A stretch of DNA of 55,785 bases, the filler included, from Dimargaris cristalligena (taxonomy: Eukaryota), in the NCBI GenBank assembly GCA_003614675.1. It is 3 parts of 3 records of this genome, joined end to end, with 100 filler letters (N's around TTAATTAATTAA, not from the genome) between each part and the next. Parts side by side here need not be neighbours in the genome. Positions count along the whole stretch, not along the records: positions 1 to 18,564 come from ML002762.1; 2 more parts are not named here. The stretch is one strand, 5' to 3'. Positions 1,746 to 52,229 of this stretch are shown one piece after another (the first letter of the stretch is position 1; every line of letters begins with the position of its first letter). Position numbers and translations under genes: made by a program. The notes beneath the pieces are model-generated. The model saw only the letters and a program-made list of their open reading frames with translations, searched no databases and was not told the origin of the DNA.

Positions 1746-2852
1746 TTAATTATACCGCTCGGTCAACACTAATTCCTTTTGCATATCGCGAAGCATTCTC
1801 AAGGCGACGTCTTCCTCGTTATCCTCGTCTATGGTCACATTCAGTTGGTTATCCTTGGTCAACGTCTGGAGCGACTGAGCCGCGGCGGCAGCGGCAGCCA
1901 CTCGATGGGGGTCGTTAAAAGTTTGGATGACTTCCGAGGGCAGTTCGAGTTCCTCCAGGCTATTGACGACGGGCACCGATACCGACGAGGTACGGCGGAG
2001 CGAGGGGGTGGGGTTAAGGGCCTGGTGCTCACCGACCAAAACGGACGGGGACACGGTGGAGGAGAAGGAGGGAGGGGGGGAGGGGGACGAATCCATGGAC
2101 ACCCGGGATGAGAGGATCTGGTAGTACGAAGTCGGACTGGCCTTCAGCGACGGTTCGGCAAACTCGTCCACCCCACCGGCCACGTAAGAGTCACTCGACT
2201 GGTCGGTAATGGTACGCTCCATGGCCATGGCCACGGGGGCGTTGTCCAGGGGTAGAGCGGAGGCATGGCGGTTGAGCGGCGGGGAGAATTCGGGCGAGGC
2301 CGGCGTGTTACCCAGCTGCTTTTCCTCCTCCACCAACTCGGGCAAAGGGCTCATGGGTACCGGTGGCTCGGGCTCTGGGTTGGACTCGGGTTCCACAACC
2401 GGTGACTTTTCCAACACTTCTTCTACCTGCACTGGTTTTTTTTCTTCTTCTTTTTTGATTTCCGGCACGGGAGCAGAAGGGGCGGGGACAGGAAGAGCCG
2501 CCGGGGAGGCCACCACCGGTTGGGGCCTGAGCTTAGCCGGCGGCGGCGAAACAGCACGGGCGGGGGGAGGAGGGGAGGACGCCCGCGTAAAGGCCGAACT
2601 AGCGGCGACAGTCGTCGGAGTGAGGTTACGACTGTGTCCGGGGCTGCTATGGTCAGACACGGACAGGGAGCGGGCCTTATTAGCCACCTCGCCCTCAGGC
2701 TCAACACCCAGTTTATTGAAGCGACTGATGAGGTCGCTGGCCCTGCTGGACTGTTTGTTAATGACCTCACGGGCCCGGCGGGTTACTTCATTTTCTTTGC
2801 GGTCGGGCGACTTGGAGAAACGGTCGACCAGGGCGGAGACTTTTCCAGGCAT
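1746..2852 (-). CDS. Hypothetical 368-aa Pro/Ser/Glu-rich, probably disordered protein
   Basis: Single uninterrupted ORF with ATG in a CA-rich context (accactATG) and coding-like GC. PxxP-rich; no recognisable folded domain. Confidence 0.8.
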   Translation of the reverse strand: MPGKVSALVDRFSKSPDRKENEVTRRAREVINKQSSRASDLISRFNKLGVEPEGEVANKARSLSVSDHSSPGHSRNLTPTTVAASSAFTRASSPPPPARAVSPPPAKLRPQPVVASPAALPVPAPSAPVPEIKKEEEKKPVQVEEVLEKSPVVEPESNPEPEPPVPMSPLPELVEEEKQLGNTPASPEFSPPLNRHASALPLDNAPVAMAMERTITDQSSDSYVAGGVDEFAEPSLKASPTSYYQILSSRVSMDSSPSPPPSFSSTVSPSVLVGEHQALNPTPSLRRTSSVSVPVVNSLEELELPSEVIQTFNDPHRVAAAAAAAQSLQTLTKDNQLNVTIDEDNEEDVALRMLRDMQKELVLTERYN

Positions 2853-4345
2853 AGTGGTGGTGGTGAATGGGCTTGGGTGAGGTAGAAGAAGCTACGGAAA
2901 GTGGGATATGGGATAGACACAGGAGTACGAAAAGTCAAGGGTGACGGGAGGTCGTTATAAGGGAAACCAGGCCGAGATGGGCAGCTATTTGGGGAAAGAC
3001 GGGCGGAGTTTCGTTAGGCGTAATGGTCGAATAGAGAGGAACAATCAAGAAAAATATGCAGGGTGAAGTTAAGACTTGGGAACATTTTATAAAGAGAACG
3101 AGTGCATACGCCGGGCAGGTGGGAGAGTCTTGGGAGAGAGGTGGCTGGGCAAATGCTATATCCGGACAGCGGAGAGAGTGGTAAAGTAAAGGAGCCCCCG
3201 CCAGTCGGAATTCTAGAAAGCCCTCCCCTCCCTCCTCCTTCCCCGTCTAATGGTCAAGTGGGAATGATCCGGTGGGGGTCCGTTCCACCCAGCTGCCAAG
3301 CAAGCCCCCTTCCCGCAACCCCGTGCCCGTATACCTGCCTGACCGTGCGTCGGCTCCCCGATACGGCCATGATAGTAGTGGGGGGTGTATCCGATAGCGC
3401 GGAATTAAACAGTAGAGTATCTATCTAGTGGATGAGGAGGTGCCGCTTACCTGAATATTCGGAAAAAGCATAAACCCTATGTATTTCGAATAAACCCATT
3501 AAAAAGTAGTACTTAATAAACCAAAGTCGGCCAACGGGCGATGCACTCCCAGCATTATAAGTACTAGTGGAGTGGGTGTATTTGGGAATAAATAGGCAAG
3601 TGTCAGTGATGCCTTGATAATGGAGAAAAGGGGAAGATCCCCTCAACTCCACTGACTGTCCGTTGCTGGGGTTAGGGTAGAGCAGGCTCCCTTTCTCATT
3701 GACCCATTCCTCCCCCCTTTATTTGAACACACCACCCCCCTGCTGACACCCACTGTCCTTACCAAGTGGCTTTTCATGAGTCCGAATGAATAGCTTAGGA
3801 ATGAAGGTGCCATTCTTACATGGGTCGGCATAATATGGTCTATAAATAATCCCCAAGGTCTGGGCTCCATCGCACCCTTATACCACATAGCCTTAGGGCA
3901 AGGGAGGGGATACATTGAGCCAGTGCATCCATCCTAATGTGGAGCTGTATCGTAAATGAAGCTCCCTTTAGGCACCTTCCTAGCGCATTTCATACAATAC
4001 CTATCTGGTATGCTCCCTGTTCCTATTATATCGCTCATAACCAATATCCCAGACCCAAAGAACTCGAGCAGCCTCCGCGAAACCGTGGAGCTGCAGGTCG
4101 CAGCTCAATGTCTCGTCAAACCTGGGCGGTAGATTGGTGTAGCCTGGCTCGCTGCCATCCACTTCGCATCTCCTTGTACCCAACTCCTCGGTAGTCTACA
4201 ACATAAAACCATGCCTAAATAATTGAATACATCATTATTATTATTGATAATATGACTACAATTTACACCACCTATCCATACCAACTCTATAAATTATAAC
4301 ACTTCCACCGCCACTTCGCCTTGCTATCATTAATCCCATATTAGC

Positions 4346-6203
4346 CTACTCCCCCCTCCCATGGGTATCTAAGGTAAAGCCCTTGAGGTTTCCCCCGTTT
4401 GAAAGCCGCGCCAATTGATGATCTGCCGGTTCGATTAAGATGTTGTCGGCTTTAATATGACCGCCCAGGACCTGCTGGTGGATAACTGCCTCGGTGTAGG
4501 CCGACCTTGGACCATGTAGCTTACCCGAATTCTCGTCTGGCCCGCTCTTCGAGATGAATTGCCGAAGCCAGGTCGAGTAGAATTCGGCAAACCAGGGGTT
4601 ACGTCGGGCCACTCGGGCGGGTACAAAGGGCCCGTGATCCAGCAGCCATAGCCTTTGTTCGGAGGAGGGACGTGCTGGTCCGGTGGAAACCGAGACCGTC
4701 TTCGGGCCCTTGTCTAGTATGGGTCGAAGGTAGTGGTCGATTAAGAACCGACTAAGCTGACCTGCCGCCTCCAATCCCAGGGGTCTCCTTAGCCCCGTAT
4801 ATGTGCTACTATTAGTAGGTGCAGTAGCAGGTGTCCACCAGAGAAGGGCCAGTATATATTGCTATATAAAGAATAGAATACATATAGCCATAATATGTCC
4901 GTAAAAAGTTGATAAGTATCTTATTACCACATTATATTGGGATAGAAGGTATTTTACAGACCTATTTCGAAACATGTCCATAGAGCAAAAACCAAAAAAA
5001 AAAAAAAAAAGACATGACCTACCTGTCCGGTTGAATCCATGGGGCGCACCAGTGCGTCAATATAGCCAACTATAAACTGATTTGCACGACTATAGTCGCT
5101 AAAATCGCCCATTGAATCTATGTATTTATGTTGCAACCCGGCGGCCATTGCCTGGGTCACCAGCAATGCAATATCCCATTGATTTTTGGCAGCCAACGAC
5201 TCACCTGAAATATTCGGATTTTCTGAGGTTGTAAATCGGCAAATAGAATATGGCAAAATCTTTAGGGATGATTGATTGTAATTGTATGTGAATATATATG
5301 GGTGGAATTCAGTGCAGATGTATAAGGTTTTGGATACTACGCGTATGGGAAAGTATACGAGAGATCCATTATTAACCAGTGGTTTTTGCCTCATCCAACG
5401 GATTTATCGTTATACAGTCTGGTTGAACCTTTCCCATATATATATATATATACGGATATTACATTTTTACTTTGATCGAAAACCGCCCACAAAAACTCAT
5501 GGACTTGTGGACTGCTTAGTCACCATAAACAACACATACCTTCGTCGGGCAGGCTGTCATCCACTACTATTGTACTTTGATCGGTATCCAGATCTTCCAC
5601 CATTTGACTTACAATATCAAGGACCGAAGCACTTTGCCCGCCGTCCCACCTATCGGCTGCTTCTGAATCAGAGAAACCCAACAATCGGGGATTACCTGGG
5701 TGGGATACTGAACCAAAATTATTAGTATCGCCTATCGAGCTAGTGGTGCAGGTAGTCGTCTCCCCAGAGGGTTTCCCATTACCATTACCATTACAATGAC
5801 ATAATATACCAGGAAAGGCCTGTATAATTTGGATATAAATGTCCGCGGAAATATACACATTGGATAGCAAGGTCGACAAAAACGAAGTCCCCGCCTGTCG
5901 GAGTTGGTCTAGCGAGGGCAACGCGGCCTTCGGATAGGCGGTAGTTAGGTCGACGGTATTACTGTCCCTATTATCTAAGGGATCATTAAGGACGGGTTCC
6001 CCAGTAAGATAATGGTATAGGTCTTGTTGTTGAGCCCCCGTGGTAGTAGTGGTGGTGGTGAAGGTCTGGGCTACATGACGGCAGGTCGCTTCGAATCGGC
6101 GGATGTCGTGCATCGACCAATGCCGGGCTTGGCTGGTGCGGGCTTGGGTTAGTAGGTCCAATACATCGGCGAGCTGGGCTACCAAGGGGTCGGGTGAGGC
6201 CAT
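4346..6203 (-). CDS. Spliced ~453-aa protein, FANCF-like (Fanconi anaemia group F); 3' end uncertain
   Basis: Exons 6203-5540, 5204-5023 and 4861-4346 join in frame via GT-AG introns (gtatgt..ttcag; gtaggt..tatag). The N-terminal LVAQLADVLDLLTQARTSQARHWSMHDIRR, the segment LPSLDQLRQAGTSFLSTLLSN and the later ARVARRNPWFAEFYSTWL resemble FANCF motifs as recalled from memory. Alternative donors near 4524 or 4349 could splice to an acceptor at ~4196. Confidence 0.6.
5296..5439. mobile_element. ~144-bp MITE-like element, copy 2 (in intron 1 of the FANCF-like gene)
   Basis: atatgggtggaattcagtgcagatgtataa ... ttatacagtctggttgaacctttcccatat. Colinear with 6404-6545 and flanked by (TA)n. Confidence 0.7.
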
Positions 6204-6403
6204 GGCAAAGCAAGGGAAAACAATTAGAGAACGCGGTGTAGTGGCAACGCCGCAATAAAGAATGGGACAAGGTAAAATTGGTCGAGGTTGGTCACTACTG
6301 AAAGAACCGGGAGGAAAGTAGATGCGACAGGGGCAGGCAATGGGTGCCACACGGAATCGAAAGCCAAAGGAATGGCGGACATGTGATAAAAAGGGAAAGT
6401 TGA

Positions 6404-6545
6404 ATATGGGTGAAATTCGGCCCAGCTGTATAAGGTTTTAAATGATGTGTATGGGATAATGTATGGGAGATTTATTTTCAACCAGTAATATTTGCTTCAT
6501 CCAATGGATTTTTCGCTATACAGCTCGGTTGAACCTCTCCCATAT
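6404..6545. mobile_element. ~142-bp MITE-like element, copy 3 (upstream of the FANCF-like gene)
   Basis: TIRs atatgggtgaaattcggcccagctgtata / tatacagctcggttgaacctctcccatat, with 23 of 29 positions Watson-Crick paired by hand count. Confidence 0.72.
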
Positions 6546-6891: not shown

Positions 6892-8037
6892 TTAAGTACG
6901 TTTGTAATTTGTGTCTTTATCCTGTCCCAGATTGCCGGCCACGCTAGCGGCCACTTCCACCGTCCGTGCCAGAGTGGAGCGAATTTTCCCGTCTTCCATA
7001 GTCAGCAGCCCCGCGATGGTACACCCCGCCGGAGTGGTTACCAGGTCCTTTAAAGCGGCGGGATGGATGGCCGTTTGCAGGGCCATGCGAGCGGTGCCCT
7101 GGAGGACTTGGGCGGCGAGTTCATACGCTACGTCGCGCGGCAACCCCATCATGACACCACCATCGGCCAATGATTCGAGAATCACGCAAATAAAGGCGGG
7201 GCCGCTAGCCGCCAAACCCGTGGCGGCATTGATGTGTTTCTCTTCCAAGGCCCGGCACCGACCGAGAATGGTAAAGACCTGGGTGGCAAAGTCAGTGTAA
7301 GTGGAGGGCGTATCGGGGTTCCAGCAGAGGATGGTCATGCCTTCGCGGATCTGGCAGGGGGTATTGGGCATGGCCCGGATTACATTGGTGCCAGAAGGGA
7401 CCCAGCCGTGGAGCTGCTTCAGAGTGACTCCAGCACAAACACTGATAAGTAGTTTGGGACTAGAGGCCAGAGCGGCAGCCACTCCGGGCGACTCGAGCAC
7501 TTCACGGGCCTTTTGGGGTTTACAGCTACAATGTCGGGATCGGATAATAACATGATGAGAGATGGCCAGGTATTATTAATAGGAAAGCGATGGTCAGCTC
7601 CAAACACACTGATCTGGTCCAGCATGTGATTATACGTATTAGGATATCCGCTATTTGAAAGCCATGCTAGTCCAGGGTAGTGTAGTTACCCTCAAGTAGA
7701 GATCGATTATAAGATTCGATTGCATCGTAAGGGGAGTGTGGCCGGAGAACGGGGGTTCCTACCATAAAAAGATCACGTCTGCTTCCTTGATTACGCTGGC
7801 GTTGTTAACGTGTGACACAACCTTGACTTTGCTGCCATAGCAAGTTTTGAGGCGCTGGACTGACTCTTCTCGAATGACCGTGGCCCAGACCTCTGCTGGA
7901 CGGGGTAGAGTATCGCCGGGGATGGGCTTCTCCGGCAACTCGGCCAGACGAGCAAAGAGCCCATCAATGATGACTCGGCCCATAGTGCCACAGCCGATAA
8001 AGGCCAGTTTCGGGGCGTTTAGAAGCCCGCGGGTCAT
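6892..8037 (-). CDS. PRO3: Pyrroline-5-carboxylate reductase (302 aa, 2 exons)
   Basis: Exons 8037-7763 and 7525-6892. Rossmann motif AFIGCGTMG; VIFLCCKPQ across the splice junction; ISVCAGV, RAMPNTP, ASGPAF and LKDLVTTPAGCTIAGL motifs. Confidence 0.96.
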
Positions 8038-9566: not shown

Positions 9567-12500
9567 ATGTCCCCCGTCAACGGAAGTGCTAGCCGTCCCC
9601 GTCGGGGTCCAGCCCCAGACATGCAGACGCCGACCCGTCCCCAACGCCAAGCCGCCGCCGCTGCTTCAGCTTCCGCCCCCTCCCAATTCATGGCCTCCTC
9701 GGACTTGGACGATTCCGATTCCCTGAGTGACAACGACCCGGGGTCCCCATCGGACACCTCCCCCACGTCTAGCGACCATGAGGATGGGGAGAAACCGACC
9801 CGCCGTACCACCCAACTAGCCGGTCGCCGCGCCCCGGCCGCCAAACGGCAGATGGCGAAAATCCCCACACCTACTAAAGCGGCCGTCCAGTCGCGTGCCC
9901 GACCCAGCCGGGGCGGTCCCAAAGACCACGGCGGCGAAAGTGATGCGGCCGCATCTACGACGACCCCCTTGGCGAAGCGCGCCCGCATGGATCGCACCGA
10001 AACCACCCCCCGCTATAATAGTCCATCCGCTACCAGTGGCGGAAGCCGGGATCCCCACCGATTCAATAAAAACACCCCCGCCGGTCGGGCAGGTATTCAG
10101 GCCCGGGAAGCCCTTCATACTTGGTGCCGCCTGACCTTCCGGGAGGTTCGGTACTACAAAGATTCCACGTAAGTAGCTAATTACTGAAATACGGCTCTGA
10201 TTGCCAATCTATACCGGGTGGTCTTCAGCCTATTGCTTCCCCCTTCCTTCTTCACCATTCAATGATACCTTAATGCCAGCTTGCGGCCGTTTTGGTCCAA
10301 ATACAGTGTACCTAATTCCGGATTGCCCACTGTATTGGATTATTTTTTGACCTCCCTACCACCACTCACCTGGCACGCGTCATGACAGAGGGCGGCTTGT
10401 ATCCAAAATGTTCCACGATCTTCCAGACGCCAAAGAATACCCGGATTACTACCAAGCCATAAAGACCCCCGCTTCCTTTTCCTGTGTGCGGGAGCGGATC
10501 GATGATCGACTGTATAACAATGCCGCCGAATTCATGACTGATATGGAATTGATCTTCGAAAATGCTAAATTCTATAACGAAAAGGGGTCGCAGATCCACG
10601 ACGACGCAGCCCTTCTGCAGGTAACTTACATTGATTCAGTCTTAGTTTATAAACTCGTTGCAAGCCTACGTGAATCTATTTCTTATTCCGGTTATTGCTC
10701 TTATTACCCTCTTCCCCTTCAGCGCAATGAGTACTCGTATTAATTCATTATTCTATTGTTGTGCCCCTTGTATGGTGATACCTTCACCACCCCCGTGTTA
10801 TCACATTGCCCGCTTTTGTTTCCGCTATGATCCAGAAACTGTACCACAAATCCCTAAAAACCTCACCCCCTCCATTCGAGGAGAGCTTAGACGAGCGCGT
10901 GGCCACTTTTGAACGGACCGGGCGATCCCTAGACCCACCCGTCACCAAGCATCGGCCAAAGTCGGCCGCGAGCACCCCCGGGGGTGGACCTCCCCACCAC
11001 TCCGGTTCTACCGCCAATTCCGAATCGGGGCAACCGGAATCCCTGCGGAGTCGACCCCTCATTACCGCCGACGAAACCGCGGACCTGTTGCGGGCCATTG
11101 AAACCGCCGACTACGACATTGCCTTTGACATTCTGGGCCGCGTCCGGCTCGACCCAGCCGCGCTCTACGATACCCACCAGGACGGCCTCGATTTCACCTG
11201 GAGTTTCCTGCACGCAGCGGGCTTTTTCGGCCGGTTCAAGATCCTACCCGCCCTGATGGAACAGGGTATCGACGTCAACATCAAGGATACGCTGTATGAG
11301 GGAACCCCTTTGGCCTGGGCGGCGTACGGCACGCATAAACGGATCGCCCGGGCGTTGGTGGAACGGTACGGGGCGGACGTGTACGCGAAGAATATCCATG
11401 ACCAAATTCCACTGGATTTGGTGCCTGAGGAGGAAGTTGATGAGTGGCGGCTGATTCTAACGGATAAGAAACATAATCCGGCGCATTCAACCGGGGCCGC
11501 CAGTAGCACCTCCGGTGTAGGGGGGGCGGCAGCGGCTCGGGCCACCCCTGAAGCCCGACCGGCCATACCCACCGTGACCCGTGAACAACTGGTCGCACCC
11601 ATGACCGAAGTTGTCGAACAGCTCAAAGAACTGACCGCGGATGACGAAGAAGAGGATGAAGATGAAGACGAGGAGGGCCCCCGGCAATTAGCCGAAATGT
11701 TTTTGGAACTTCCCTCCGCTAGTGAATACCCCGAGTATTTCGAAGTCATCAATCAACCCCGGGCCTTCGAAACCATTGAACAGCGAATCGCCCAGACCGC
11801 CGACGGATCATCCACCGGCGGGGGGTACCAGACGTGGGCGGAATTCCAGGCCGACTTTCAACTCATTTTCGACAATGCCCGGTTCTTCAATGAAAAAGGG
11901 TCCCAAATTTACGAGGACGCCAATACCCTCGAACAGAAATTTGCGGAACTCCAAACAAAAGTTCTCAATGCCCACCAGTTGGGGTTCTTAGCTACGGCGA
12001 CCGGATCTGCAACTTCGGCTTCGGGCCAAGCCATTCAACAGCCGTTCACCCAGATTGTGCAGCGATACGTATGGAACCAAATTCCCTACCAGACTAACGA
12101 CTTCGTGTTTTATCGGCATGCGGACGACCCCCAAATCACCGTGGCGTTTATTCGGACCTTAATGGTCAACGAAAAGTAAGTTTGCTGGTTCGATGTGTAG
12201 TTGTATACCTGTGAATCGGCTTTTATTACAGCGTGGAATGGGTGTCGCCGAATGGGCCAAATGCGTTGGTTTCCGGTATGCATGCAGTTATGCTCTACCG
12301 GATACCCCTTGCCATTCGTTGCATGAGTACTGTTTAGTGCCTTGTTCTTGCTGATCTTTCGTTAGATATGGCTTAGCAAGATTTACCGAATACTTACCAC
12401 ACCTTGCTTCTACTTTTCAATTATATATAATATGTGTATGTCCTTGACGGCAAACACTGCCACTTCCCACCTATCTGCTACACTAGATCTGAACCACTAT

Positions 12501-15500
12501 TCTCCGGCGTCTGGTTCTATCGGCCCGATCAAGTAAGTTATAAAGGATCAGGACCACCTCCCCTCCCCCTATTACCAGGCCTCTTCCGCCCTATCTGTTT
12601 CTGGATACAAAGAAGGCCATACCTGGCAATTTTCCCACCAGGCTTTTTAATGCTAGCACCCGGAAACGCAGTATCAGCCACCCTCTCCACCCGCTAGCTC
12701 CCCTGTCTAATGATATAACTTGGCTATATAACCCGCGGACGTTCTAACCTTTACTCTTCCCCTTGTTTTGTTTTGTACTTGTCTATATTACTCCGCTTCT
12801 GAACAGACCTACCACTCTGCCACCCGTACTTTCTATTCCAACGAACTATTTCTCGCCTCGAACGCCGATAAGATCCCCCTATCCGGTGTTCAAGGCAAAT
12901 GCTTTGTCATGCCCCTTAAGGAATACCTAGTCAGCCATCCCGAAGGTGTACCCCCCGACCGACTCTTTCTGTGCGAATCCCGGTATATCGAAAAGAACAA
13001 GCAGTTTCAGCCACTCAAGGATTGGAAGAAGCAGCTCGGTGTCGACGTTGCTCCGACATTGCCCTTGGTGCCCCGGCCCACCCCACTGAAACTGGCCAAA
13101 ATCCCGTCCCCCTTGGCTAACCCAATGACCACCACGCCCCGTAAAAAGGCCCCGTCGTCCGAGCCTAGTGCCACCACGCCCGCATCAGCGAGTCGATCGG
13201 GTCGACCCCGTCAGGCCCCTAAATCGTATGCCGAGGAAAATGACGACGATGATGATGATGACGGCGATGAAGAAGAGGATGAGGACGATGGCGAAGACGG
13301 GGATGGTAAGGATAGCACCTGGGGGGGTGGAAGCAAAACCGCGCCTGGTACCGCCGCCGCGCGTAATGCGGCTCGACCACCTAACAATGGTATGTCTGGA
13401 GGCATGGCCTCACCCGGTGGTATGATGATGCCGGGGGCTAATCCATTCATGAACCAAATGGCCGTGATGCAACAGCAACAACAACAACAACAACAGATGA
13501 ATGGTATGCCAATGTCGCTTCCTCCCAACGCCATGTACAACAACTCAGCCATGGCAGCAGCCGCGGCTTCGGGTATGTTACCGGCGGGCCATCCCATGTA
13601 CGCCATGATGGCGGCGGCAGGGGGGCAATTCCCACCCGGCGGTATGATGCCCCCCGGAATGCCCGGCGCCAACTATCCCGGCGGCATGCCCAACATGCCC
13701 TTTAATCCGACCGCGGCTGGTATTCGACCAACGCCCACCCCGGGTTTCCCGGGCATGGGCGGACAGGCTAGCTCATTGCCCTTACATATGCAGTTACAAC
13801 TCCAACAGTTCCAAAATAATCAGCAGCTACAGGCGATGAATAATCCGGCGTTTCAACAGCAGATGTACTTACAGATGATGCAGAATCAGCAGCTCCTTCA
13901 ACAGCAACAGCAACAACAGCAGCAGCAGCACTACCAGCAACAGCAGGCCATGGCCAAAGCCGCGTCCACCGCGGCAGGTGGCTCACCTAATCGAGGCAAT
14001 TTCGGTTTCCCAGGTTCACCCAATGCCAACTTCCCGGGCAGTCCGGCGATGATGGCAATGATGGGCGGATTCCCCGCTAATAATCCGATGGCTAATATGG
14101 CCGCCATGCAACAACAGGGCGCCATGTATCCCTCCATGTCGGCGGGCGGCGCTCATTCCAACCGTAGTTCTATATCGGGCACATCTTCGGTATCGGCATC
14201 ACCTAACCCCAATGCTGCTCTTAATATCGGTGGTGGTGGTATGGCCACTGGAACTCCACGGCGACTGTCTTCGGCAGCAGAGCAGCAACAACAGGCCCTT
14301 CGATCGGCTAAAGCCAAGAAAATGGGGGCTCCGAATGCGCCATCGGCCGCTAAGGATGGCACACCCATGTCTCCGACCGCTAACCGTTCGACCATGTCGG
14401 TAGACTCCCCGAGCCTTCAGTCGGTGGGGACAGGTGGTGGAGCCCCGTCGTCAGTATCGTCCAACTCCGCGTCCTCGGGTATATCCCCTGCCCAACTGGC
14501 CGAACTGAACAACACGTTGCCTCCCCAGCCCTGGCAGAGGCGCACTTTAACCGCCACTGCCCCGCCGAAAACTACGACGCTGTTGTACAGACTGCAAGTG
14601 GCCACCAGTGACCGGAAGTTTTTTATTACCTTGGATTTGGACGATGCGGCGTATAGTTTCCATTTACACGAGTCGGCCCCGTCACTCATGATTAAACCAG
14701 TCGCTTATCACGCTTACCGGTCCATTTCCAACGGCACCGCCCCCGCTACGCCAGGCTTGGGCCCGGGTTCGGGTAACCCAACTGTTGAGGCGGGTGCCGA
14801 CGGTTCAACCAACGGCTCCCAACAACAGCCGGCGTGGGTGAACCACCTCCATGTTGGCCCCGTCTTTTTCACGCTCCGCCAAAATAGACGGCCCTTCCCG
14901 CCTACATCCTATGTCGACGTGAACAGTAAATTCCATCCGACCGCTGCGTTTCCCTTGGGCGTCCCTATTTCGGCTCTGGTGCAGCCCGGCGGGTGTCCTA
15001 ACCCAAGCTCACCCACCCTAGTTATGCCTAGCCACAAGTCGGGTCAAAGCGGCGCTACAGCCCAACTGAGTTCCACGGGTTCCCCGGGCTCTGTAACTAG
15101 TGGAAGTGGAAATGGATCAGCAGGGTCAGGCATGGCCAACACGAACGGGAATGCAGCCACCGCGAATGGCAACGGAGGAGGCGATGCGGTAACGTCGCCA
15201 GTGCCGGGAAGTTCACCGAGCTTGGTCCAGTCCCCTCAGCTACCGGGCTCTAATGACCCACCGCAACCCACACTTGGTACGCCTACCCTCCAACAACCAT
15301 CATCATCGCCGGCGTTGGCCACCCACCCCACCGCCCCGACCACCGTCCCCAATCGGACTTCCACGCTCCCCGGCCTACCCCTCCAAGGTATCCCCCCCAC
15401 CCTGGCTGCCGCGACCCAGTTCGCTTCGCCTATTTACGATATCCCGCTGCAGTCCGGATTAAATGCCCTGGAACTCTGGACCTCCAATTTCCCGCCCGCC

Positions 15501-15614
15501 GATAGTTCAAATATTGTACACACTGCCATTGCTAAATTACCCCCCGCCGCGCTGCGGGCATTAGAAACGGCGCCGAAATTCGAACAAGTATTAAAAATCT
15601 TCATTACTAAATAG
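9567..15614 (+). CDS. Rsc1/Rsc2-polybromo-like chromatin-remodelling subunit: bromodomain, ankyrin repeats, bromodomain, BAH, Q/M/G-rich region, C-terminal domain (~1675 aa)
   Basis: Exons 9567-10168, 10389-10620, 10836-12175, 12487-12532 and 12807-15614 join in frame with GT-AG sites. BD1: FHDLPDAKEYPDYYQAIKTP...LIFENAKFYNEKGS. BD2: FLELPSASEYPEYFEVINQP...LIFDNARFFNEKGS. BAH: GVWFYRPDQ|TYHSATRTFYSNELF...GKCFVM...FLCESRY. Ankyrin: SFLHAA, GTPLAWAA, IPLDL. The start codon is the least certain part. Confidence 0.88.
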
Positions 15615-18564: not shown

Positions 18565-18664
18565 NNNNNNNNNNNNNNNNNNNNNNNNNNNNNNNNNNNN
18601 NNNNNNNNTTAATTAATTAANNNNNNNNNNNNNNNNNNNNNNNNNNNNNNNNNNNNNNNNNNNN
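18565..18664. other. Artificial contig linker (N44-TTAATTAATTAA-N44)
   Basis: Exactly 100 bp with a central six-frame stop spacer; identical to 37187-37286. Confidence 0.97.
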
Positions 18665-20081
18665 GCTCGGAATCGGGCTTATCGGAAGAGACGGGCCGCA
18701 GATTGGAGCTTTTGAACAGGTTGATATCCATGTCGTCGTCTTGGTAGTTGTTTTCGAGGTGCGTGTCCTCGGCCTCCTCCAGGGGGTACAGGGAACTCTC
18801 GGAGCGGGGTCCCACTTTGGGGTTCAACTGGGGGTGCGAGGCGCTGGCGAGGAGGGGGGGTCGAGTGGCCGGAGGAGGGGGTCCGGCGGTAGTCGGGGAG
18901 GTGGTAGAAGCTAGCCCGAGGTTATCATTAGTGGGGGCGAGGGAAAAGGCATTGACGGTGGTTAGACGCCGGGACCGGCTGAAGAACATGGTGGCGGGCC
19001 GACTCACCATGGTCGAGAAGGAGCGCATGCTGCTCTTGGACGGTTTGCGCGAGAGAGTGTCGGCGCTTAGGGACATACGCCGACCCGGGCGTCTAGGAGG
19101 GGTTAGGCTGAGGTGGTGGAGGATTTCATCGAGGGACTCCTCGAGGGGGGGCGGGTTGGTGGGCCACAGGGGCGCCGAAAGCTTTTTGCGACGAACGTCG
19201 GTCATGCGTCGTTCCAAAGGGGACATGGGTGGAGTAGTGGTTTGGAGGGTCATGGAGGTGGAGTGCCGGGGGAAGGTCACCGCGGTCGCTGACGAAGCGG
19301 TACTGCACAGGGATAGGTTGTTGGGAGTCTGGGGCGTGCGCAGGGGCTCGCAAGTGTCTTTGTCACAGACCGAGTTCACCTCGGTCAATGTGGGACTACG
19401 TACAGCCAGGGTCGGCGCCAACACCGGGGCGTAGTGGCGCTTCCGACGAATCCCCCGGCGGCAGACCTGGGCGGACCGGATACTGTTGGACCGGGTTGGG
19501 GCGGGAAAGAGCTGACTCTTGGGTGCGGTGTATTGGCCAAAGGAGAAGTGTTGGTTAAATAAATGGTAGTCGACTACCTGGGGCAAACCCATGGGTTCGA
19601 CCGGCGAGTCGGGGGACTGGGATAGTTCGCCATTGAAAAGAGCAGTGGAGGTAGTATCAACAGTGAGCCCAGGCGAAGCAGGGGATCGGGGTTCCGTAGC
19701 GGGCATGAAACCCACATGGACGCCGGTTTGATTGGTGGTAAGTTCGCTCTCGCTGTCGCTTTCACTTTCGGCCTCCAGAAACCAGGCAGAGTTTGTAATA
19801 GGAGTCGGCTCCCAAGGGCCGCTCTGGCGGGAGTGCAGCAGACCCCATACCGAGGTTGGTGGCCGCTGGTGTGATCGACGGGGGCGGCTTTTGGTGGGAA
19901 AGGTCAGCAGGGTAAGGGAGAGAGGCAGGCTGAAGAAAACAGGGGGCTGCTCCGCCAGGGGAGAGCCAAGGCAGCGGCGGAGTTTTTTGACGGGGAAATA
20001 GCCGCCGGGTCGCAGACCTTCGAGTGGCCGGTGCCGCTGGATGGTTACCAGCATGGTAAGGGATTTGCGCGGCTGGCCCAT
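18665..20081 (-). CDS. Hypothetical Ser/Thr/Pro/Arg-rich protein, 3'-truncated at the contig end
   Basis: ORF of more than 470 codons open to the gap, with coding-like GC and several RRxS/T motifs (RRMT, RRMS, RRLT). No recognisable domain. Confidence 0.75.
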
Positions 20082-20762
20082 GGTGCAGGGCGTGTCAATA
20101 GGAAGGGGGGGTAGTGATATGCACTACACTAGGATGCGGAAGGGGGGCTGGGCTATGTGTACGGGTGAGCAAACAAAAAATAGATATATAAAACCTAGGA
20201 GGACACGGGGTGGTGAAGAGGGGTGCGGCTAGCGCAGGGGGGTTCAAACGGGTGGCAGGTTTCGTCTAATGCCGAAGTAAAACATATAAATAAATAAATA
20301 GGAGCGTTGGGTACGGTAGGCGGTGAGCTGCGGGTACTGGTGAATTGGGGCCCGATAGTCGTCACCAGAACAGTCGCCAGGTGCAGTGAAACGGGGGAGT
20401 GGGGGAGATAAGTAAAAGGGTGGATTTAAACATTAAACATAAAAGTGAGAATGGGGAAGCGAAGAGAGCAGCTCCAAATTGATACGTTGGGGCTCGCTTG
20501 ATGAATTGCGAATCGATAACTAGAGTGCGTGGAGAGCAGCCAGGCTTGTCGACATTGAAGCATGTGGGAGAGCCGGATTATAGGTGGAAGGGTACGGCTG
20601 AGGTGAAGAGTGGCATGACCAGTCAGGCCTAGCAAAGATAATAGAAGAACTGTGAGGAGCTCAGTGGTCCAAGGGATGTGCGTCAGGGTTGGGTGGAAGT
20701 GGTGATGATTATGATGATGAACAAGACGGTCAGTAGGAATGGCTGGTATACTTTGTATATTG

Positions 20763-28383: not shown

Positions 28384-29969
28384 ATGGAGTATTTTAACAC
28401 AGCCATGTCGCTGGTTAGCTCCAGCGGTGTGCCAAAACTTCCCAGTATGAACTTTGGCCATTTCAACTCAAAAAAATTAACCTATGCGCCAGAAATACCG
28501 TCCGAAAAACCGGGTTCCTATATTATCAGCCAATTCGTTGAGACGGACAATAAAAGCTGGGGAAAGAAAGTGAAGCGTACGCCCCTTTAGTAAGTTTCTA
28601 CTTCCACTAGGGGATCATAACATTCACCTCGAATCTAAGTTACTTAGCGGCTGCTCCATACTGGCATTTTTCCGTTGAGAGTGAAAGTAGCCACATCGAA
28701 ATAAATTATTTTGAATATGCGCATTTGTTTGTGTTCGTGCCATCGGGCGCTTCCTTAACTTAGTTGGCATTGCCGATATTAGGACCCGACTGGTCAACTC
28801 CACTGTAGCTAAATTGCATATCCACGCCTATGTATTTTACATCACCTAAATAAATCTAGATCGAGGGTGTGGCTGAATGCGTCGATGAAATGATAAGTGA
28901 AGACCCCAATATAGCCAATTTCGCCATCTACAAAAAGGAAGAGCGTAGTACCTCCCATCAAGACAGGGCCTGCAAACGCAAAGATATTAAGTCCTACTGG
29001 GACGTCCTTTTCAAGCAGGAAACCGAAACCAGGCTCGTGGCCACTTACTTTGCCATGAAAGAGAAGAATGTGGGGCGATTTGCGAAGGCGCAGGGGCTCT
29101 CCCAAAGCATGGAAGCAAGCATGGAATCATACGTTGCACTTGAAATGGACCTACTCTCCGATCGTGGTGCGTGTCTCAACTTTCCGATACTCGCTTTGGT
29201 CGATAAATGGACCGCCGAAAGAATGGCCTTATTCCTGCCGACGCTTTTCGACACATCTTCGGCCAAAGGTATAGCCAAGCTCCTTTCGACTGGCGCTCAT
29301 ACAAATACCAAACATGACACTGCCATCATGGTGGAAGCCTTGCCTCGCATCTACAGCAACCCTATCTACCTAATGATATGGTATCTCAACACATTCAACA
29401 GCTTAGACCATTTGGAGGGTTATTTCAACACTATCATTTCCAAAGAATCACTTTGGCGTCCAGACCATAAATACCAGGGAGTAGAAATAGGGCGTATGGG
29501 CCTGGATTTGGCTGTTTCCGAGTACGAGAGATTCAAATCCCGCGAAGAAAAAGGGAAGGCCCTTGCTATCAAAGATCAAGAACATCACGACAAGCACTTG
29601 GATGAGCTCATAGCGAAAATAAGTTTCCTTTCGAGTCGGGCCGGCTGGGGGAATATGGCTTATCATCGTAATGAGACTCCCAAAGAGATGTTGGCCCACT
29701 TCATCGAATGCCTGAACAACCGCGGAATGAAAGATACTGCAAAATACCTGACCAAGGATGAGCATAATATCGTTCAGTTCTTCAGAGAATTGAGAGAAAC
29801 CCCTTACAAACGGGGCGCTGACGAGGTCACGGCAGCGCCGTGCTCATGCAACGACATCATGTGGGAACTTGACATACTGGATCATTCTAGAAAGAATCTC
29901 ATCTTTGGAGCAAACAAAAATCTTTTGATGCTGAGCAAAGCCGAACAAAACACGAGTGCAGGTAGATAG
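28384..29969 (+). CDS. Hypothetical protein (orphan); 5' exon structure uncertain
   Basis: A 366-codon ORF (28869-29969) is preceded by an in-frame acceptor (tctag|ATC at 28860). An upstream ATG exon 28384-28589 ends at gtaagt. A direct join creates a stop, so a middle exon near 28640-28730 is required. Confidence 0.65.
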
Positions 29970-37286: not shown

Positions 37287-37695
37287 GTTTTGGTGAAATT
37301 TAGGGCCTGAGTTCGCTGTGGAACCCACCTGATCGCACCTGTCACCCCTAGCCTCCGCCACAGGCCGTAAATACCATCCGTCTACGACGCTGGCTGCCCG
37401 TCACATTGTTTTGATTGGGGGGAATTTTTTTTACAATTGGGCTCAGGGTCCGTCGTGCAATAAAACCGGCCCTCCGCCCTGTAACCCCGTTCCCATATCA
37501 GGACAATCCGCTGCCCTTCTCTATGCCTTTCTAGTTACTTCCTTCTTTCCCTTAGACTTTCGTTCATGGCCATATTCCCGCCAACTCATTACACCAGATC
37601 CCTTCCCTCTTGTTAACCATCACCCTTTCGTAAGTTTGATTTTCGATTTCCTCTCCCTCTTTAAACCGCACGGCTCCAGTTATACAATATTGACC

Positions 37696-38277
37696 ATGAC
37701 CCAACACCTTGCCCTTATGTTGGCCGCGACCGCCTTCCTTGCCAGCGCCCATGCCAACTCGCCCATCCAGGCCAGCGGCTGGAATATCACCAATTTGCCC
37801 GTGGGTGAACGCGTGGCCCTCTGTGCCATGCAGATCCAGGTCTGCCAAACCACCTGCGGAGGTCCCGATCTCGCCCCCAAGGCCTTTTGTAATGACACCA
37901 CGATGGGCTGGGGCTGTGGTTGCAAAGGGCACAGCCCTGAGTACGATGTCTACAACCTGCCCATCCCAGGCCGCGACTGCGAAGGATTTGCGAAGGACTG
38001 TGTCGACCGGTGCAAGTTCAACGTTGATTGTGTGGAGAAATGCCGGTCCGATTGGCCTTGCCACACGCCGGAAGCCCCGGAATCCTATCTAGAAGTAAAC
38101 CGTTCCAATGAAATGCCCGCCTACAAATTCGTCGATAAATCGGAAAAGGGGCGGAAGGCTGAAGCCGATGGGGAAGCCAAGAGCTCGGCGGGCCAAGGTC
38201 CGACGGCGGCTTCCCTTTTCCAAACCCTGCTCATCGCGGCTCCTGCCACCCTTTTGGTGGCCACTATGTTCGTGTAA
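37696..38277 (+). CDS. Secreted Cys-rich, probably GPI-anchored cell-surface protein (193 aa)
   Basis: Signal peptide MTQHLALMLAATAFLASAHA, a 12-Cys domain (CxxQxxxCxxxC...C...CxC...C...CxxxC...CxxxC...C), candidate omega site SSA and hydrophobic tail LLIAAPATLLVATMFV. Confidence 0.85.
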   Translation: MTQHLALMLAATAFLASAHANSPIQASGWNITNLPVGERVALCAMQIQVCQTTCGGPDLAPKAFCNDTTMGWGCGCKGHSPEYDVYNLPIPGRDCEGFAKDCVDRCKFNVDCVEKCRSDWPCHTPEAPESYLEVNRSNEMPAYKFVDKSEKGRKAEADGEAKSSAGQGPTAASLFQTLLIAAPATLLVATMFV

Positions 38278-40560: not shown

Positions 40561-42394
40561 TCATCGAGTAGGGTGAATGGGGTGAATAGATAATGGTGTC
40601 TATCCACAAGGGCGCTGGCGTAGTCTAGATTGTAATGGATCATTGGTGGCGGTGGCTTATTCGGTGCGAGGATCTCAAAACTTTAGTGGCGCTGAAGTTT
40701 TTCACCTAACCTCACTCTCCTCGCAACCTCAAGTTGTACGATTCGATGCGCAGAGAGGGGGTTATACCTATTTTTGGACTCACTCAGAACCGGCGAATAA
40801 AGGGACAGTCTGCGCTTTGGTAGCCATGAAGAATCGACGTGGCTTTTTAGTAGCAAAATAATAATACTAATTGCGGATAGTTCTATCGAAGACTCCCTTT
40901 ATTACGACCAACACCCCCTATCCTCTTCGTTTGTCCTACTTGATTCCATCCCATGGTAACCTTGATACCAAAAAACTCAACCGGTGTCAAGATCCAATAG
41001 GCCCAGTCTGCCTGCCACACGGGGGGCATTGCTATCATCAAAGCAAGCCTTAGGTTACTAAGTGCGCCAATTAGACCTCTGTAAGTGTAACGGTGGGCGG
41101 AATGAGCCATAGCTATCCGCCCATTTTGTATGGCAAGAGCCCTGCCACTATTGTAGAATATACAGGCTAATGTGGTCTACCCTTATTAGTTCATCACCGC
41201 ACACACCCTTCTGCCCCGAAAAAATTAAATCCGGCGCAGCTGGACTATCCCACACGATGCCTATACTCTCCAACTACCGCCGCTTCCAAGGCAGACGAAG
41301 CAAACCAGTTAGTTACAGACCGGCCCTTTTATATATATATATTATTTTATTCATTTAGCGTGTTATACCAGTGGCATTGGGGGCTGGACGGCCCACCTTG
41401 TTCTATTGCCAACACGTTTATAATATTAGTAGGAATGCGAGAAGAGGGGAGCATGAAGTTGGGGGGTGATTGGTGCCATCAATGCGAGGGGAAAGTGTGG
41501 TCGCACAAACGTATCTGACTTCAATAGGTTCCCTTCTTGGAACGCCCCAGTGCCGTCCAACTTAAAGTCCCCGCATATCAAGTATAGGGAATTGCTATTG
41601 GCCCACGCGCTGGCATGGCAGGTTTACGGATAGGGAGTACGCTAATAAACTATACATTCTAGTGAATCAACATCTATTCTAAGTTTCGGAAAAATCCATT
41701 GAGCTCAAGGACATGGCCCAACCATAAAATTACTCTGCCACTGCTCTAATGAATGGTCAGTTCTGGGCAACCTCATCCCTCCTCATTCCAATATATTTAA
41801 TGACCATGGCCTTTGGAGAGTCCCTTCCCTGTATATTGGCACTGGCTTGTCTATTAAACGCATGAATGTTTCCCATCTTTGTATCGCCCGCCAATGAATG
41901 TTCATTAGTTGGCGTATACCACTTAGTCTCTCGCGTTGTTTCCCGTGGATTGAATTCGCTTCAGCTTAGCGCTCCCCCTCAAAACTGTATTCCGTTTGTG
42001 TAATATAATGTATCACCTTCCACTTTCGGTGCAGTCGAAAAAAAGCCCCCCCACGACCCCTGCACTATTCCGCGGCAAGGTGATCGATCAGCCCCGCCCA
42101 TCTGCACGAATACCTTACCCATCTACCTATCAACACACATATATATACACCCATACGTCGCCCATATGGTTACTCTCCAGTCAATAGCTATTCGCACCAT
42201 CCGTTCATAAATTTTTGTTCTTGTCTTTTACCACACTTGATCTATACAGGCGTGTTTATATTATTAAACCGACGCCCGATTCTGACGCTCATTTGATTTG
42301 CTATTATCTTGTTAGCCAATCCTTTTTACCTTTGGCTATTGAAACCTTACACCAAAGTCCATTTTATACGGTTACCTTCGATTGTATTTTAAAT

Positions 42395-43407
42395 ATGAGG
42401 ATCACCAAACTTAACTTAGGAGTGGTCGGATTTTGGGCGGTTGTTCTTTTGGCCTCCAATACCCAAGCGCAACCCAGTCCGTATAACCCCCTCCGCAAAA
42501 TCATAGACTGGCGTCGTACGCCAAATGACCAAGCCGATCAAATGCCAGGTGGTTATACGGATAGTCCCAACCCCGCTCATTTACCTCCTCAACACGGGGA
42601 TAGTGTGCAGAAGGTGCGTTTTCTCAGAAGATTGCGCCAGAAGCTGTCTCCTTTCAGCAGCTCACGCAGATCCAAGAGCGCCGCCGGCGTATCGGCTCCC
42701 GTCGAGTCGGAGGGCATCGAATTGAGTGATTTATCCGAAGTGGAACCGAACCCCTCACCTAGCTCGATTAATGATTTAGACCACGCTAGTCTCTTGACCG
42801 GTTCGGATCGTAGGACGACCCAGGTACCCACCGATTTGATCGTACCGGAAATTCCCCTGCGGCAGCAGGAACCCGCGTCAATTGCGCTGGGATCAGCGAG
42901 TTCCACCGCCCCGCTTCCCATCGTTCACGCCGATACCTCCCCCGTGAACTCAGGTTCTGCCCTTCTTGCAATTATGGCTAATGATATTCCCTTCAGCGAG
43001 GGCGAAGTTCGGGGGGGAGAGTCATATTCCCTACCTTATGAATACAATATCTCCGATGAGTCCACCGTCGTATTCCCCCATCCCCCTACTATGGCTGAAC
43101 GACTTGCCCTGCCCCCCCTGGCTAATGGTAGGTCTAATTTGGCCAGTGGAGAGTACCCAGCGGACTCTGAAATCGATGATGACAATGATGCATCCCAAAT
43201 CAACTGGAGCGACGACGAAAGAGACCTGGAGCAGTATATGGCCGATACGAACGAGAGGCGGAGAGGCGAATTTGGTCTCCCCGCTTACATTACGGGTCAA
43301 CTGATGGGCTATCTTAGTTCCGAGTCTCCATTTGACTCCTTTTTCGCGAATCATGGGCCTCCCCAAGCAACCCAGCCAGGCGGAACCAATGTGGATGATG
43401 ATGATGG

Positions 43408-43449
<42 letters not shown>

Positions 43450-43612
43450 CAGGGACCGGAATGAGGCGGGTCCCTCCGAATTATTTGTGCCGTTGGCTAT
43501 CCCTAATGAGTACACCCAAACCAACCGGAGGGTTCAGCATACTATGGAGGGAAGCACCTGGCTCACTCTTGGTGAAAACGACCCAACAACGATGGATGAA
43601 CTACGCCGCTAG
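42395..43612 (+). CDS. Hypothetical secreted acidic, low-complexity protein (405 aa)
   Basis: Signal peptide MRITKLNLGVVGFWAVVLLASNTQA; single exon; poly-Asp tract encoded by a (GAT)n repeat at 43394-43450. Confidence 0.8.
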
Positions 43613-50943: not shown

Positions 50944-52229
50944 ATGGTTCGCTTCGTTACTGCTCTGACCCTCATGGCCCTCGCGGCTCCCCTTCTCGTT
51001 TTGGCCCAAGGCTCGCTTCCCGGCGGTGGTAAGTAATATACATAGCCATTCTCTGCTTGTACCCAAACCAGCTCTTCGCTGCCCAACTTCAGATCCGATC
51101 CAAGTGGATCATTGTTGTCAGAAACCGCGTCACCAGTGTTACGAAGTAATATATTTTTAAATACTTACCCCGATGCCAATCCGGTTTATCTATTGTAAAT
51201 TGATTATATTCGACGATTTTAGGATGCGATGCCACTCACCCTTGTGCGGCCGGCCAATGCTGTAGCCAGTGGGGCTGGTGTGGTACCGGAAGCGCCTTCT
51301 GCGGTAGCAGCCCTCAGCCCTCCAACACCTCGGCTCCCCCCACCAACCCCACCAATGTTTCCACTGACGGTTCTTGTGATGCTAACAAGACTTGCCCCGG
51401 CAGCCAGTGCTGCAGCAAATGGGGCTATTGTGGTGCTGGCGATAGTTTCTGCGGAGCTGGTTGCCAAAACGGCCCTTGCTCCGGCGGTGGCAACCCCCAG
51501 CCCACCAACACCTCGGCTCCCCCCACCAATCCTACCAACGTTTCCACCGACGGCACTTGTGGTGCTAACAAATCCTGCCCCGGTAGCCAATGCTGTAGCC
51601 AGTGGGGCTGGTGCGGTGTAGGTGACGGCTTCTGCGGTACCGGTTGCCAGAACGGCCCTTGCTCCGGCGGCAGCAACCCTCAGCCCACGAACACTGCTAC
51701 TTCCGTGCCTCCCACCAACCCGACCAACGTTTCCACCGATGGTACTTGCGGTGCTAACAAATCCTGCCCTAATAGCCAGTGCTGTAGCCAGTGGGGCTGG
51801 TGCGGTGTAGGTGACGGCTTCTGCGGTACCGGTTGCCAAAACGGCCCCTGCTCGGGCGGTGGCAACCCCCAACCCACCAACACCGCCACTTCGGTGCCTC
51901 CTACGAACCCCACCGATGTCTCGACCGATGGTTCTTGCGGTGCTAACAAGACCTGCCCGGGTAGCCAGTGCTGTAGCAAGTGGGGATATTGCGGTGTTGG
52001 CGATGGTTTCTGCGGAACTGGTTGCCAGAACGGTCCTTGCTCCGGCGGTAGCAACCCCCAGCCCACCAACACCTCCGCTCCTCCTACCAACCCCACTCCT
52101 ACCCCCACCCCGACTAACGGCGGTAGCGGCTCCTCCGACGGTTCTTGCAGCGCCACTAAGCCCTGCCCGGCCGGCCAGTGCTGCAGCAAATGGGGCTGGT
52201 GTGGTACCGGTGCTTCCTTCTGCTCTTAA
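50944..52229 (+). CDS. Secreted chitin-binding protein with six hevein (CBM18) domains (363 aa, 2 exons)
   Basis: Exons 50944-51028 and 51223-52229. Signal peptide MVRFVTALTLMALAAPLLVLA; six CxxxxxCxxx(x)CCSxWG(W/Y)CGxGxxFC modules separated by P/T/N-rich linkers; no catalytic domain. Confidence 0.95.

What the first reader, a model, noticed from the sequence alone, without database searches (positions are those of the whole stretch)
4346..6203. Candidate fungal FANCF (Fanconi anaemia core-complex subunit) hidden across three exons
Seen: three ORF fragments from the track splice in frame into a ~453-aa helical protein. Recalled from memory: human FANCF begins MESLLQHLDRFSELLAVSSTTYVSTWDPATVRRALQWA, continues ...LANFQALGHCDVLLSLRLLEN and later has LVTSRHPALSPVYLGLLTDW. 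This protein has three segments in the same order: LVAQLADVLDLLTQARTSQARHWSMHDIRRFEATC, LPSLDQLRQAGTSFLSTLLSN and ARVARRNPWFAEFYSTWLRQF. Established: model yeasts lack the FA core complex. Inference: this fungus may keep an FA-core (FANCC-E-F type) interstrand-crosslink repair module.
Basis: partly seen in the sequence, partly recalled or inferred. Interest (0 to 1): 0.78.

Follow-up and report, generated by a model that had tools for sequence, protein, structure and literature searches.

The report
Possible hidden FANCF gene in a fungus
A three-exon gene of the mould parasite Dimargaris cristalligena encodes a protein whose front end weakly but specifically resembles FANCF, a DNA-crosslink-repair adaptor that a published survey says all fungi lack; the match is suggestive, not proven.

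Summary
On the minus strand, three reading frames (6203-5540, 5204-5023, 4861-4346) join in frame through canonical GT..AG introns of 335 and 161 nt, giving a 453-aa protein. All three quoted segments are present, in order. Protein matches of 100% identity name the organism as Dimargaris cristalligena.

The FANCF reading is partly supported, by one line of evidence. The exon-1 protein has Pfam FANCF (PF11107) as its best hit. Residues 6-131 align with profile positions 3-114 of 346, at E 2.6e-4 to 5.8e-4 and 19.5-20.6 bits. That is below Pfam's 24-bit cut-off. Twenty other reading frames from the window gave no FANCF hit, and their best noise E-value was 0.042.

- No relative exists in any protein or metagenome collection searched.
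- Single-sequence AlphaFold models were unusable (pLDDT 36 and 40).
- No genome or RNA data were available, so other Fanconi genes and the splice junctions are untested.

Both deposited gene models delete part of the FANCF-like region and lose the hit. This could explain why proteome surveys report no fungal FANCF. I put about 50% on a true, very divergent FANCF.

The parts
5540..6203 (-). Exon 1 (ATG at 6203; residues 1-221 plus the first base of codon 222)
   Evidence: Frame 5520..6437 is open. Translation. Donor GTATGT starts at 5539. Codon score is +0.32, +0.14 and +0.23 over its three parts.
5811..6188 (-). FANCF-like N-terminal region (residues 6-131)
   Evidence: Pfam PF11107 gives E 4.5e-4 on all of exon 1, 2.6e-4 on residues 1-140 and 5.8e-4 on residues 6-131. 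The match covers profile positions 3-114 of 346.
5541..5810 (-). Low-complexity, probably disordered linker (residues 132-221: Asn/Gly run, Thr/Ser-rich stretch, acidic stretch)
   Evidence: Translation. No Pfam family except a weak low-complexity YjbE hit. Codon score is about 0 for 5694-5825.
5696..5962 (-). 267-nt in-frame stretch that both deposited models remove as an intron (GTAATA..CAG); treated here as coding
   Evidence: Junction 5963|5695 reconstructed. GC is 0.48 over 5694-5957. Codon score is +0.28 for 5826-5957. Removing it abolishes the FANCF hit.
5205..5539 (-). Intron 1, 335 nt, GTATGT..CAG; contains one copy of a 144-bp repeat (5296-5439)
   Evidence: GC is 0.34-0.36. Codon score is negative in all three frames.
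5023..5204 (-). Exon 2 (residues 222-282)
   Evidence: Joins in frame. GC is 0.47-0.48. Codon score is +0.28 and +0.11 in frame against -0.39 to -0.71 out of frame. Model P0004 instead uses a 55-nt micro-exon (5259-5205, GC 0.34 over 5205-5260) and skips 5204-5090.
4862..5022 (-). Intron 2, 161 nt, GTAGGT..TAG, with a poly(A) run
   Evidence: GC is 0.28. This junction is shared with deposited model P0004.
4346..4861 (-). Exon 3 (residues 283-453; stop codon at 4348-4346); the true 3' end is uncertain
   Evidence: Open frame and translation. Model P0005 ends at the same stop. Model P0004 leaves the frame about 4523 and adds 4195-4004. Codon score is about 0.

Best explanation
This is a real, mis-annotated three-exon gene of Dimargaris cristalligena. 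It most likely encodes a very divergent FANCF-type adaptor. Residues 6-131 would form the FANCF N-terminal helical domain. A long low-complexity linker (about residues 132-221) follows, then a second helical region (about residues 222-400) that has diverged beyond recognition.

By analogy (inferred, not shown), the N-terminal domain would dock a FANCM MM1-type helix and bind a FANCC-FANCE pair. That would couple a FANCL ubiquitin ligase to FANCD2-FANCI at stalled forks, or limit meiotic crossovers as the module does in Arabidopsis.

Shown here: the gene structure from sequence signals, and a sub-threshold but specific profile match. Inferred: homology, and every functional step.
For: - **Profile match.** PF11107 is the top Pfam family of 24,736 for the exon-1 protein: E 4.5e-4 at 19.8 bits, 2.6e-4 at 20.6 bits on residues 1-140, and 5.8e-4 on residues 6-131.
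- **Both halves contribute.** Residues 1-82 alone score 13.3 bits against profile 3-53, and adding residues 83-131 extends the match to profile position 112.
- **Anchoring.** The match is co-linear and N-terminally anchored (query residue 6 to profile position 3). The next-best family is at E 0.2.
- **Controls.** Of 20 other reading-frame translations from the window scanned at E <= 10, 0 hit FANCF. The best hit not attributable to a real domain was E 0.042.
- **Key residues.** A review (PMC3364535, passages read) reports that human FANCF Leu5, Leu8 and Leu15 are needed for FANCC-FANCE binding. At the +3 offset implied by the Pfam coordinates, this protein has Val8, Leu11 and Leu18.
- **Which domain is kept.** The N-terminal domain is also where FANCM MM1 binds (PMC12263834, passages). 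The recognisable part is therefore the part whose partners are reported in some early-diverging fungi: FANCE, FANCL and FANCM in PMC11061109, and FANCE and FANCC in Rhizopus in PMC10085685.
- **Architecture.** Two predicted helical regions are split by a linker. This agrees with the two-part FANCF described in PMC3364535, whose crystallised C-terminal part is residues 156-357.
Against: - The score is below Pfam's curated cut-off (24 bits) and is the only positive result.
- Exon 2 and exon 3 give no FANCF hit even at E <= 10.
- phmmer against all PDB chains finds no FANCF with exon 1, residues 1-140 or exon 3. All hits have E >= 0.38.
- phmmer of exon 1 against 1.84 billion representatives finds only the two deposited models of this gene and one tandem-repeat artefact. 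No intermediate sequence bridges to FANCF.
- The ESM Atlas gave no usable hit.
- The matched region is Leu/Ala-rich amphipathic helix, a type of sequence for which HMM E-values can be optimistic.
- The Val8/Leu11/Leu18 correspondence assumes that profile numbering equals human numbering, which I could not check. It is also a common helix spacing.
- It is unknown whether this genome holds FANCL, FANCD2, FANCI, FANCE or FANCC.
- A survey of 183 fungal proteomes reports that all fungi lack FANCF (PMC11061109, abstract).
Confidence: 0.5

Rival explanations
1. It is a lineage-specific (orphan) helical protein of Dimargaris with no evolutionary link to FANCF. The N-terminal profile match would be a chance resemblance between Leu-rich amphipathic helices.
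For: No relative was found in 1.84 billion representative proteins, in two word-based searches of 5.8 billion proteins or in two metagenome scans. The Pfam score is under the curated cut-off. The C-terminal 230 residues match nothing. A published survey found no fungal FANCF.
Against: The nominal E-value of 2.6e-4 to 5.8e-4 is for the whole Pfam library. It is at least about 70 times lower than the best noise hit among 20 control frames. The match is long (about 125 residues), anchored at both N-termini, and draws score from two separate stretches. No other helical family appears even at E <= 10.
Confidence: 0.38
2. It is not one functional gene. The frames would belong to a decaying pseudogene or to two separate genes, and the 453-aa product would never be made.
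For: No RNA run was listed. The two deposited models disagree with each other and with model A. Exon 3 has a codon score near 0. There are no orthologues to show purifying selection.
Against: Open frames of 305 and 171 codons, canonical donor and acceptor sites that restore the frame twice, a sharp exon/intron GC contrast, and positive codon scores in exons 1 and 2. Two independent annotation projects called a gene starting at the same ATG.
Confidence: 0.07
3. It shares only a FANCF-type N-terminal domain and works outside any Fanconi pathway, for example as an adaptor for the FANCM/Mph1-type helicase alone.
For: Only the N-terminal domain is recognisable, and that domain is the FANCM MM1 docking site in humans. 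FANCM homologues are widespread in fungi, whereas core-complex subunits are patchy (PMC11061109).
Against: No direct evidence. This cannot be told apart from the main reading with the data at hand.
Confidence: 0.05

Closest known systems
Vertebrate FANCF (Pfam PF11107; human FANCF, 374 aa)
   Same: The N-terminal region of about 110 profile positions aligns co-linearly from the first residues. Hydrophobic residues sit at the spacing of Leu5/Leu8/Leu15. The layout is two helical parts joined by a linker.
   Different: The score is below the family cut-off. There is no detectable match to profile positions 115-346, which correspond to the crystallised helical-repeat domain and the FANCG-binding tail. 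The protein is 453 aa, with a linker of about 90 low-complexity residues. The gene has two introns. That human FANCF is intronless is my recollection, not a tool result.
Arabidopsis FANCF (AT5G44010) within the plant FANCC-FANCE-FANCF module
   Same: It is a precedent for a FANCF recognisable only by weak sequence similarity outside animals, acting with FANCC and FANCE, there as a limiter of meiotic crossovers (PMC10085685, passages).
   Different: The plant protein is backed by genetics, pull-downs and a modelled complex. The Dimargaris protein has none of these, and I could not compare it directly with the plant sequence.
FANCE and FANCC homologues of Rhizopus azygosporus (RCH90546.1, RCH79564.1)
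   Same: They show that some early-diverging fungi keep parts of the C-E-F module, detectable only by PSI-BLAST and HHpred (PMC10085685).
   Different: They are different subunits in a different phylum (Mucoromycota). The passages I read report no fungal FANCF.

Membership tests
FANCF (Pfam PF11107) | Profile score at or above Pfam's gathering cut-off (24 bits) | tested here: not met
   19.8 bits on exon 1, 20.6 bits on residues 1-140 and 19.5 bits on residues 6-131; E 2.6e-4 to 5.8e-4. The spliced 453-aa protein could not be submitted as one sequence.
FANCF (Pfam PF11107) | Co-linear match of the N-terminal domain, the FANCC-FANCE and FANCM MM1 binding part | tested here: met
   Query residues 6-131 align with profile positions 3-114 of 346, with score from both residues 6-53 and 83-131. 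The match is sub-threshold but is the top family, and no control frame hits it (0 of 20).
FANCF (Pfam PF11107) | C-terminal helical-repeat domain (human residues 156-357) | tested here: not met
   Exon 2 and exon 3 translations have 0 Pfam families at E <= 10. Exon 3 has no FANCF chain among PDB hits at E <= 10. Helices are predicted there, but only in a model with pLDDT 40.
FANCF (Pfam PF11107) | Fold similarity to solved FANCF structures | tested here: inconclusive
   AlphaFold2 without an alignment gave mean pLDDT 36.1 for exon 1 and 40.1 for exon 3. No fold search was run, because such models give meaningless matches.
FANCF (Pfam PF11107) | N-terminal hydrophobic residues needed for FANCC-FANCE binding (human Leu5, Leu8, Leu15) | tested here: inconclusive
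   Val8, Leu11 and Leu18 lie at the +3 offset implied by the Pfam coordinates. The mapping of profile positions to human numbering is assumed.
FANCF (Pfam PF11107) | Partners (FANCC, FANCE, FANCL, FANCM MM1, FANCD2-FANCI) encoded in the same genome | not testable with these tools
   No whole genome is held for this window. None of the long reading frames of the window that I scanned belongs to a Fanconi family.
FANCF (Pfam PF11107) | Physical binding to FANCC-FANCE and FANCM | not tested
   Partner sequences from this organism could not be obtained.

The most novel reading that the evidence does not exclude
This is the first FANCF found in a fungus. It was hidden because both deposited gene models splice out part of its N-terminal domain. 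If so, Kickxellomycotina (Zoopagomycota) would keep the FANCM-docking FANCC-E-F module, and the published statement that all fungi lack FANCF would reflect gene-model and search sensitivity limits rather than true loss.
Probability: 0.45. Interest if true: 0.6.

Novelty: new member of a known kind. Interest (0 to 1): 0.45.

Why it matters
FANCF links FANCM, which recognises damaged DNA, to the ubiquitin ligase core of the Fanconi pathway (PMC12263834). [quoted passage not shown] It used BLASTp at 1e-5 on deposited proteomes (Methods section).

A real FANCF in a zygomycete-grade fungus would push the loss of the C-E-F module later in fungal evolution. It would fit the FANCE and FANCC homologues seen in Rhizopus (PMC10085685). 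It would also show that mis-called introns can hide fast-evolving repair adaptors.

The practical lesson holds whatever the homology turns out to be. The two deposited models (351 and 254 aa) both lose the only recognisable domain.

Tried and rejected
- **RNA support.** No RNA holder was listed for 4300-6300, so the junctions remain untested.
- **Whole genome.** None is held, so FANCL, FANCD2, FANCI, FANCE, FANCC and UBE2T could not be sought.
- **Relatives.**
  - A word-based search with exon 3 (proteins of 299-2000 aa) scored 983 candidates and found only P0004.
  - The same search with P0004 (193-615 aa) scored 3439 candidates and found only P0004 and P0005.
  - Full phmmer of exon 1 against 1.84 billion representatives found those two plus P0006. 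P0006 is a chain of roughly 62-residue tandem repeats in which one 23-residue, 10/23-identity match is counted 8 times, so I rejected it as an artefact.
  - Metagenome scans gave 139 pattern matches for exon 1 and 598 for exon 3. None was confirmed.
  - The third word-based search was left unused. Its candidates must share exact 5-residue words with the query, which relatives this distant are unlikely to do.
- **ESM Atlas.** No usable hit for exon 1 or for its residues 1-135.
- **PDB by sequence.** Only noise: phospholipase A2, a phage protein, Ara h 1 and flagellins, all with E >= 0.38. The Ara h 1 (cupin) match to the C-terminal tail, at E 0.38, was rejected as chance.
- **AlphaFold2.** Exon 1 and exon 3 without alignments gave pLDDT 36.1 and 40.1. 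No fold search was run.
- **Full-length protein.** The spliced 453-aa sequence could not be handed to Pfam, PDB or structure tools as one sequence. All such tests ran on single exons or on the deposited models.
- **3' junction of P0004.** I could not rebuild it (…DENSG|GTTEEL…) as a simple two-exon join (no solution).
- **Earlier notes of this scan.** Nothing relevant.
- **Literature.** 'Dimargaris' plus 'Fanconi' returned 0 papers. FANCF with fungal phylum names returned only PMC11061109 as relevant.
- **Supplements.** Supplementary tables and Fig. 2 of PMC11061109 could not be seen. I therefore do not know whether Dimargaris or any Kickxellomycotina was among its 183 proteomes, or which FA genes they hold.

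Full report
**What is there.**
- The finding lies on the minus strand. Three stop-free frames (5520..6437, 4954..5403 and 4346..4861) can be joined as 6203..5540, 5204..5023 and 4861..4346.
- The introns are 335 nt (GTATGT..CAG) and 161 nt (GTAGGT..TAG). The result is 1362 nt, which is 453 codons plus a stop.
- The three quoted segments are at residues 7-41, 95-115 and 364-384.
- The ATG at 6203 is the first in its frame, with an in-frame stop upstream.
- Exons have GC 0.47-0.57 and introns 0.28-0.36.
- I trained a codon-usage log-odds score on 10 other long frames of the window.
  - Exon 1 scores +0.32 (residues 1-82), +0.14 (the stretch the deposited models remove; +0.28 for 5826-5957 and about 0 for 5694-5825) and +0.23 (its last part) bits per codon in frame.
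  - Exon 2 scores +0.28 and +0.11.
  - Both introns are negative in all frames.
  - Exon 3 is only about 0, although its frame is still the best of three.
- No RNA run was listed, so the junctions rest on sequence signals.

**Organism and deposited models.**
- Two database proteins match at 100% identity and name Dimargaris cristalligena. They are BJ085DRAFT_29280 (P0004, 351 aa) and H4R33_001347 (P0005, 254 aa).
- Both start at the same ATG. Both remove 5962..5696 as an in-frame 267-nt intron (GTAATA..CAG).
- P0004 further uses a 55-nt micro-exon (5259-5205) and skips 5204-5090. It leaves exon 3 near 4523 for a last exon at 4195-4004.
The skipped stretch has GC 0.48 (5095-5204) and scores +0.28 per codon in frame (5095-5202), against GC 0.34 for the micro-exon region (5205-5260).
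- The 3' end remains open.

**Is it FANCF?**
- The exon-1 protein (P0001, 221 aa) has PF11107 (FANCF) as its best Pfam family. E is 4.5e-4 at 19.8 bits, with residues 6-131 aligned to profile positions 3-114 of 346. The next family is at E 0.2.
- The hit is stable to trimming: 20.6 bits on residues 1-140 and 19.5 bits on residues 6-131. Both halves contribute. Residues 1-82 alone give 13.3 bits against profile 3-53, and the next 50 residues extend the match to position 112.
- As a small control I scanned 20 other frame translations from the window at E <= 10. They comprised 9 frames that overlap longer frames on the opposite strand, 9 frames that are probably or certainly genes, and 2 other frames from this locus.
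  - None hit FANCF.
  - The best hit not explained by a true domain had E 0.042.
- The hit is therefore specific, N-terminally anchored and long. It is still under Pfam's curated 24-bit cut-off, and it is the only positive evidence.

**What failed to support it.**
- Exons 2 and 3 match no Pfam family at E <= 10.
- The deposited models give no FANCF hit.
- phmmer against PDB chains gave only noise.
- phmmer of exon 1 against 1.84 billion representatives found only the two deposited models plus a tandem-repeat artefact.
- Word-based searches, the ESM Atlas and two metagenome scans found no relative.
- Without relatives, AlphaFold2 ran on single sequences and gave pLDDT 36.1 and 40.1. I did not search folds with such models. 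Their secondary structure is mostly helical outside the linker.
- The spliced protein could not be submitted whole, so a summed full-length score is unknown.

**Context from papers.**
- PMC11061109 (abstract, Methods, first part of the Discussion, passages) surveyed 183 fungal proteomes by BLASTp at 1e-5 followed by clustering and domain scans (NCBI CDD, PfamScan).
  - It reports that early-diverging fungi keep FANCL, FANCD2, FANCI, UBE2T, FANCE and FANCM. Entomophthora muscae, for example, is listed with FANCD2, FANCL and UBE2T.
  - Its per-taxon figure and supplements were not visible to me.
- PMC10085685 (passages) found FANCE and FANCC in Rhizopus azygosporus by PSI-BLAST and HHpred. It established the plant C-E-F module and mentions no fungal FANCF.
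- PMC3364535 (passages) reports that the first 15 residues of human FANCF, and Leu5/Leu8/Leu15 in particular, are needed for FANCC-FANCE binding. It also reports that residues 1-158 are needed for FANCM binding.
- PMC12263834 (passages) places the FANCM MM1 helices on FANCF's N-terminal domain.
- In the Dimargaris protein, the +3 offset implied by the Pfam coordinates puts Val8, Leu11 and Leu18 at those three positions. This is consistent but weak. The numbering equivalence is assumed, and the spacing is that of any amphipathic helix.

**Reading.**
- I give about 50% to a true, very divergent FANCF-type adaptor whose N-terminal partner-binding domain alone remains recognisable.
- About 38% goes to an unrelated orphan helical protein with a chance match.
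- The rest goes to a non-functional or mis-joined locus, or to a protein that shares only the domain.
- The observation that only the N-terminal domain is kept would fit a lineage without FANCG, the partner of the human C-terminal tail. PMC11061109 reports FANCG as absent from fungi. That remains an inference.
- Because the curated cut-off and the C-terminal domain test were not met, I do not file the protein as a FANCF family member. It is a candidate.

**Surroundings.** The neighbours give no pathway clue:
- a pyrroline-5-carboxylate reductase fragment (6895-7572, minus strand);
- an ankyrin-bromodomain protein (10779-12176);
- a BAH-domain protein (12732-15611);
- a DUF7707 protein (37333-38274);
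- a six-repeat chitin-binding protein (51204-52226).

Noticed in passing
window 5296-5439 and 6404-6545: A 144-bp repeat in the same orientation at 78% identity. One copy lies inside intron 1 of the gene and the other just upstream of its start codon. These are the only two copies in the window. It may be a small mobile element.
   Followed up: partly
window 5696-5962, 5090-5259, 4004-4523: The two deposited protein models of this gene (351 aa and 254 aa) disagree with each other. Both remove an in-frame, stop-free, exon-like 267-nt stretch. I could not rebuild the 3' junction of the 351-aa model as a simple splice.
   Followed up: yes
window 18565 onward: A run of N begins at 18565, and the window holds 176 N in all. 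The first 18,564 bases equal the contig length listed for the deposited protein. The window therefore spans an assembly gap or a join of contigs.
   Followed up: no
window 51204-52226 (+): A reading frame with six Chitin_bind_1 repeats (E 2.7e-47). A 369-aa stop-free frame also runs on the opposite strand.
   Followed up: no
window 6895-7572 (-), 10779-12176 (+), 12732-15611 (+), 37333-38274 (+): Neighbouring frames carry a P5C reductase dimerisation domain, ankyrin repeats plus a bromodomain, a BAH domain and DUF7707. None belongs to a Fanconi family.
   Followed up: no
window 1749-2891 (-), 18612-20123 (-), 28860-29966 (+), 42188-43609 (+): Four long frames (369-504 aa) have no Pfam family at E <= 0.001. 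At E <= 10 the first three still have none, and 42188-43609 has only noise-level hits (E 1.8 and 4.9). This genome seems rich in proteins with no recognisable family, which lowers the weight of 'orphan' as an argument either way.
   Followed up: no
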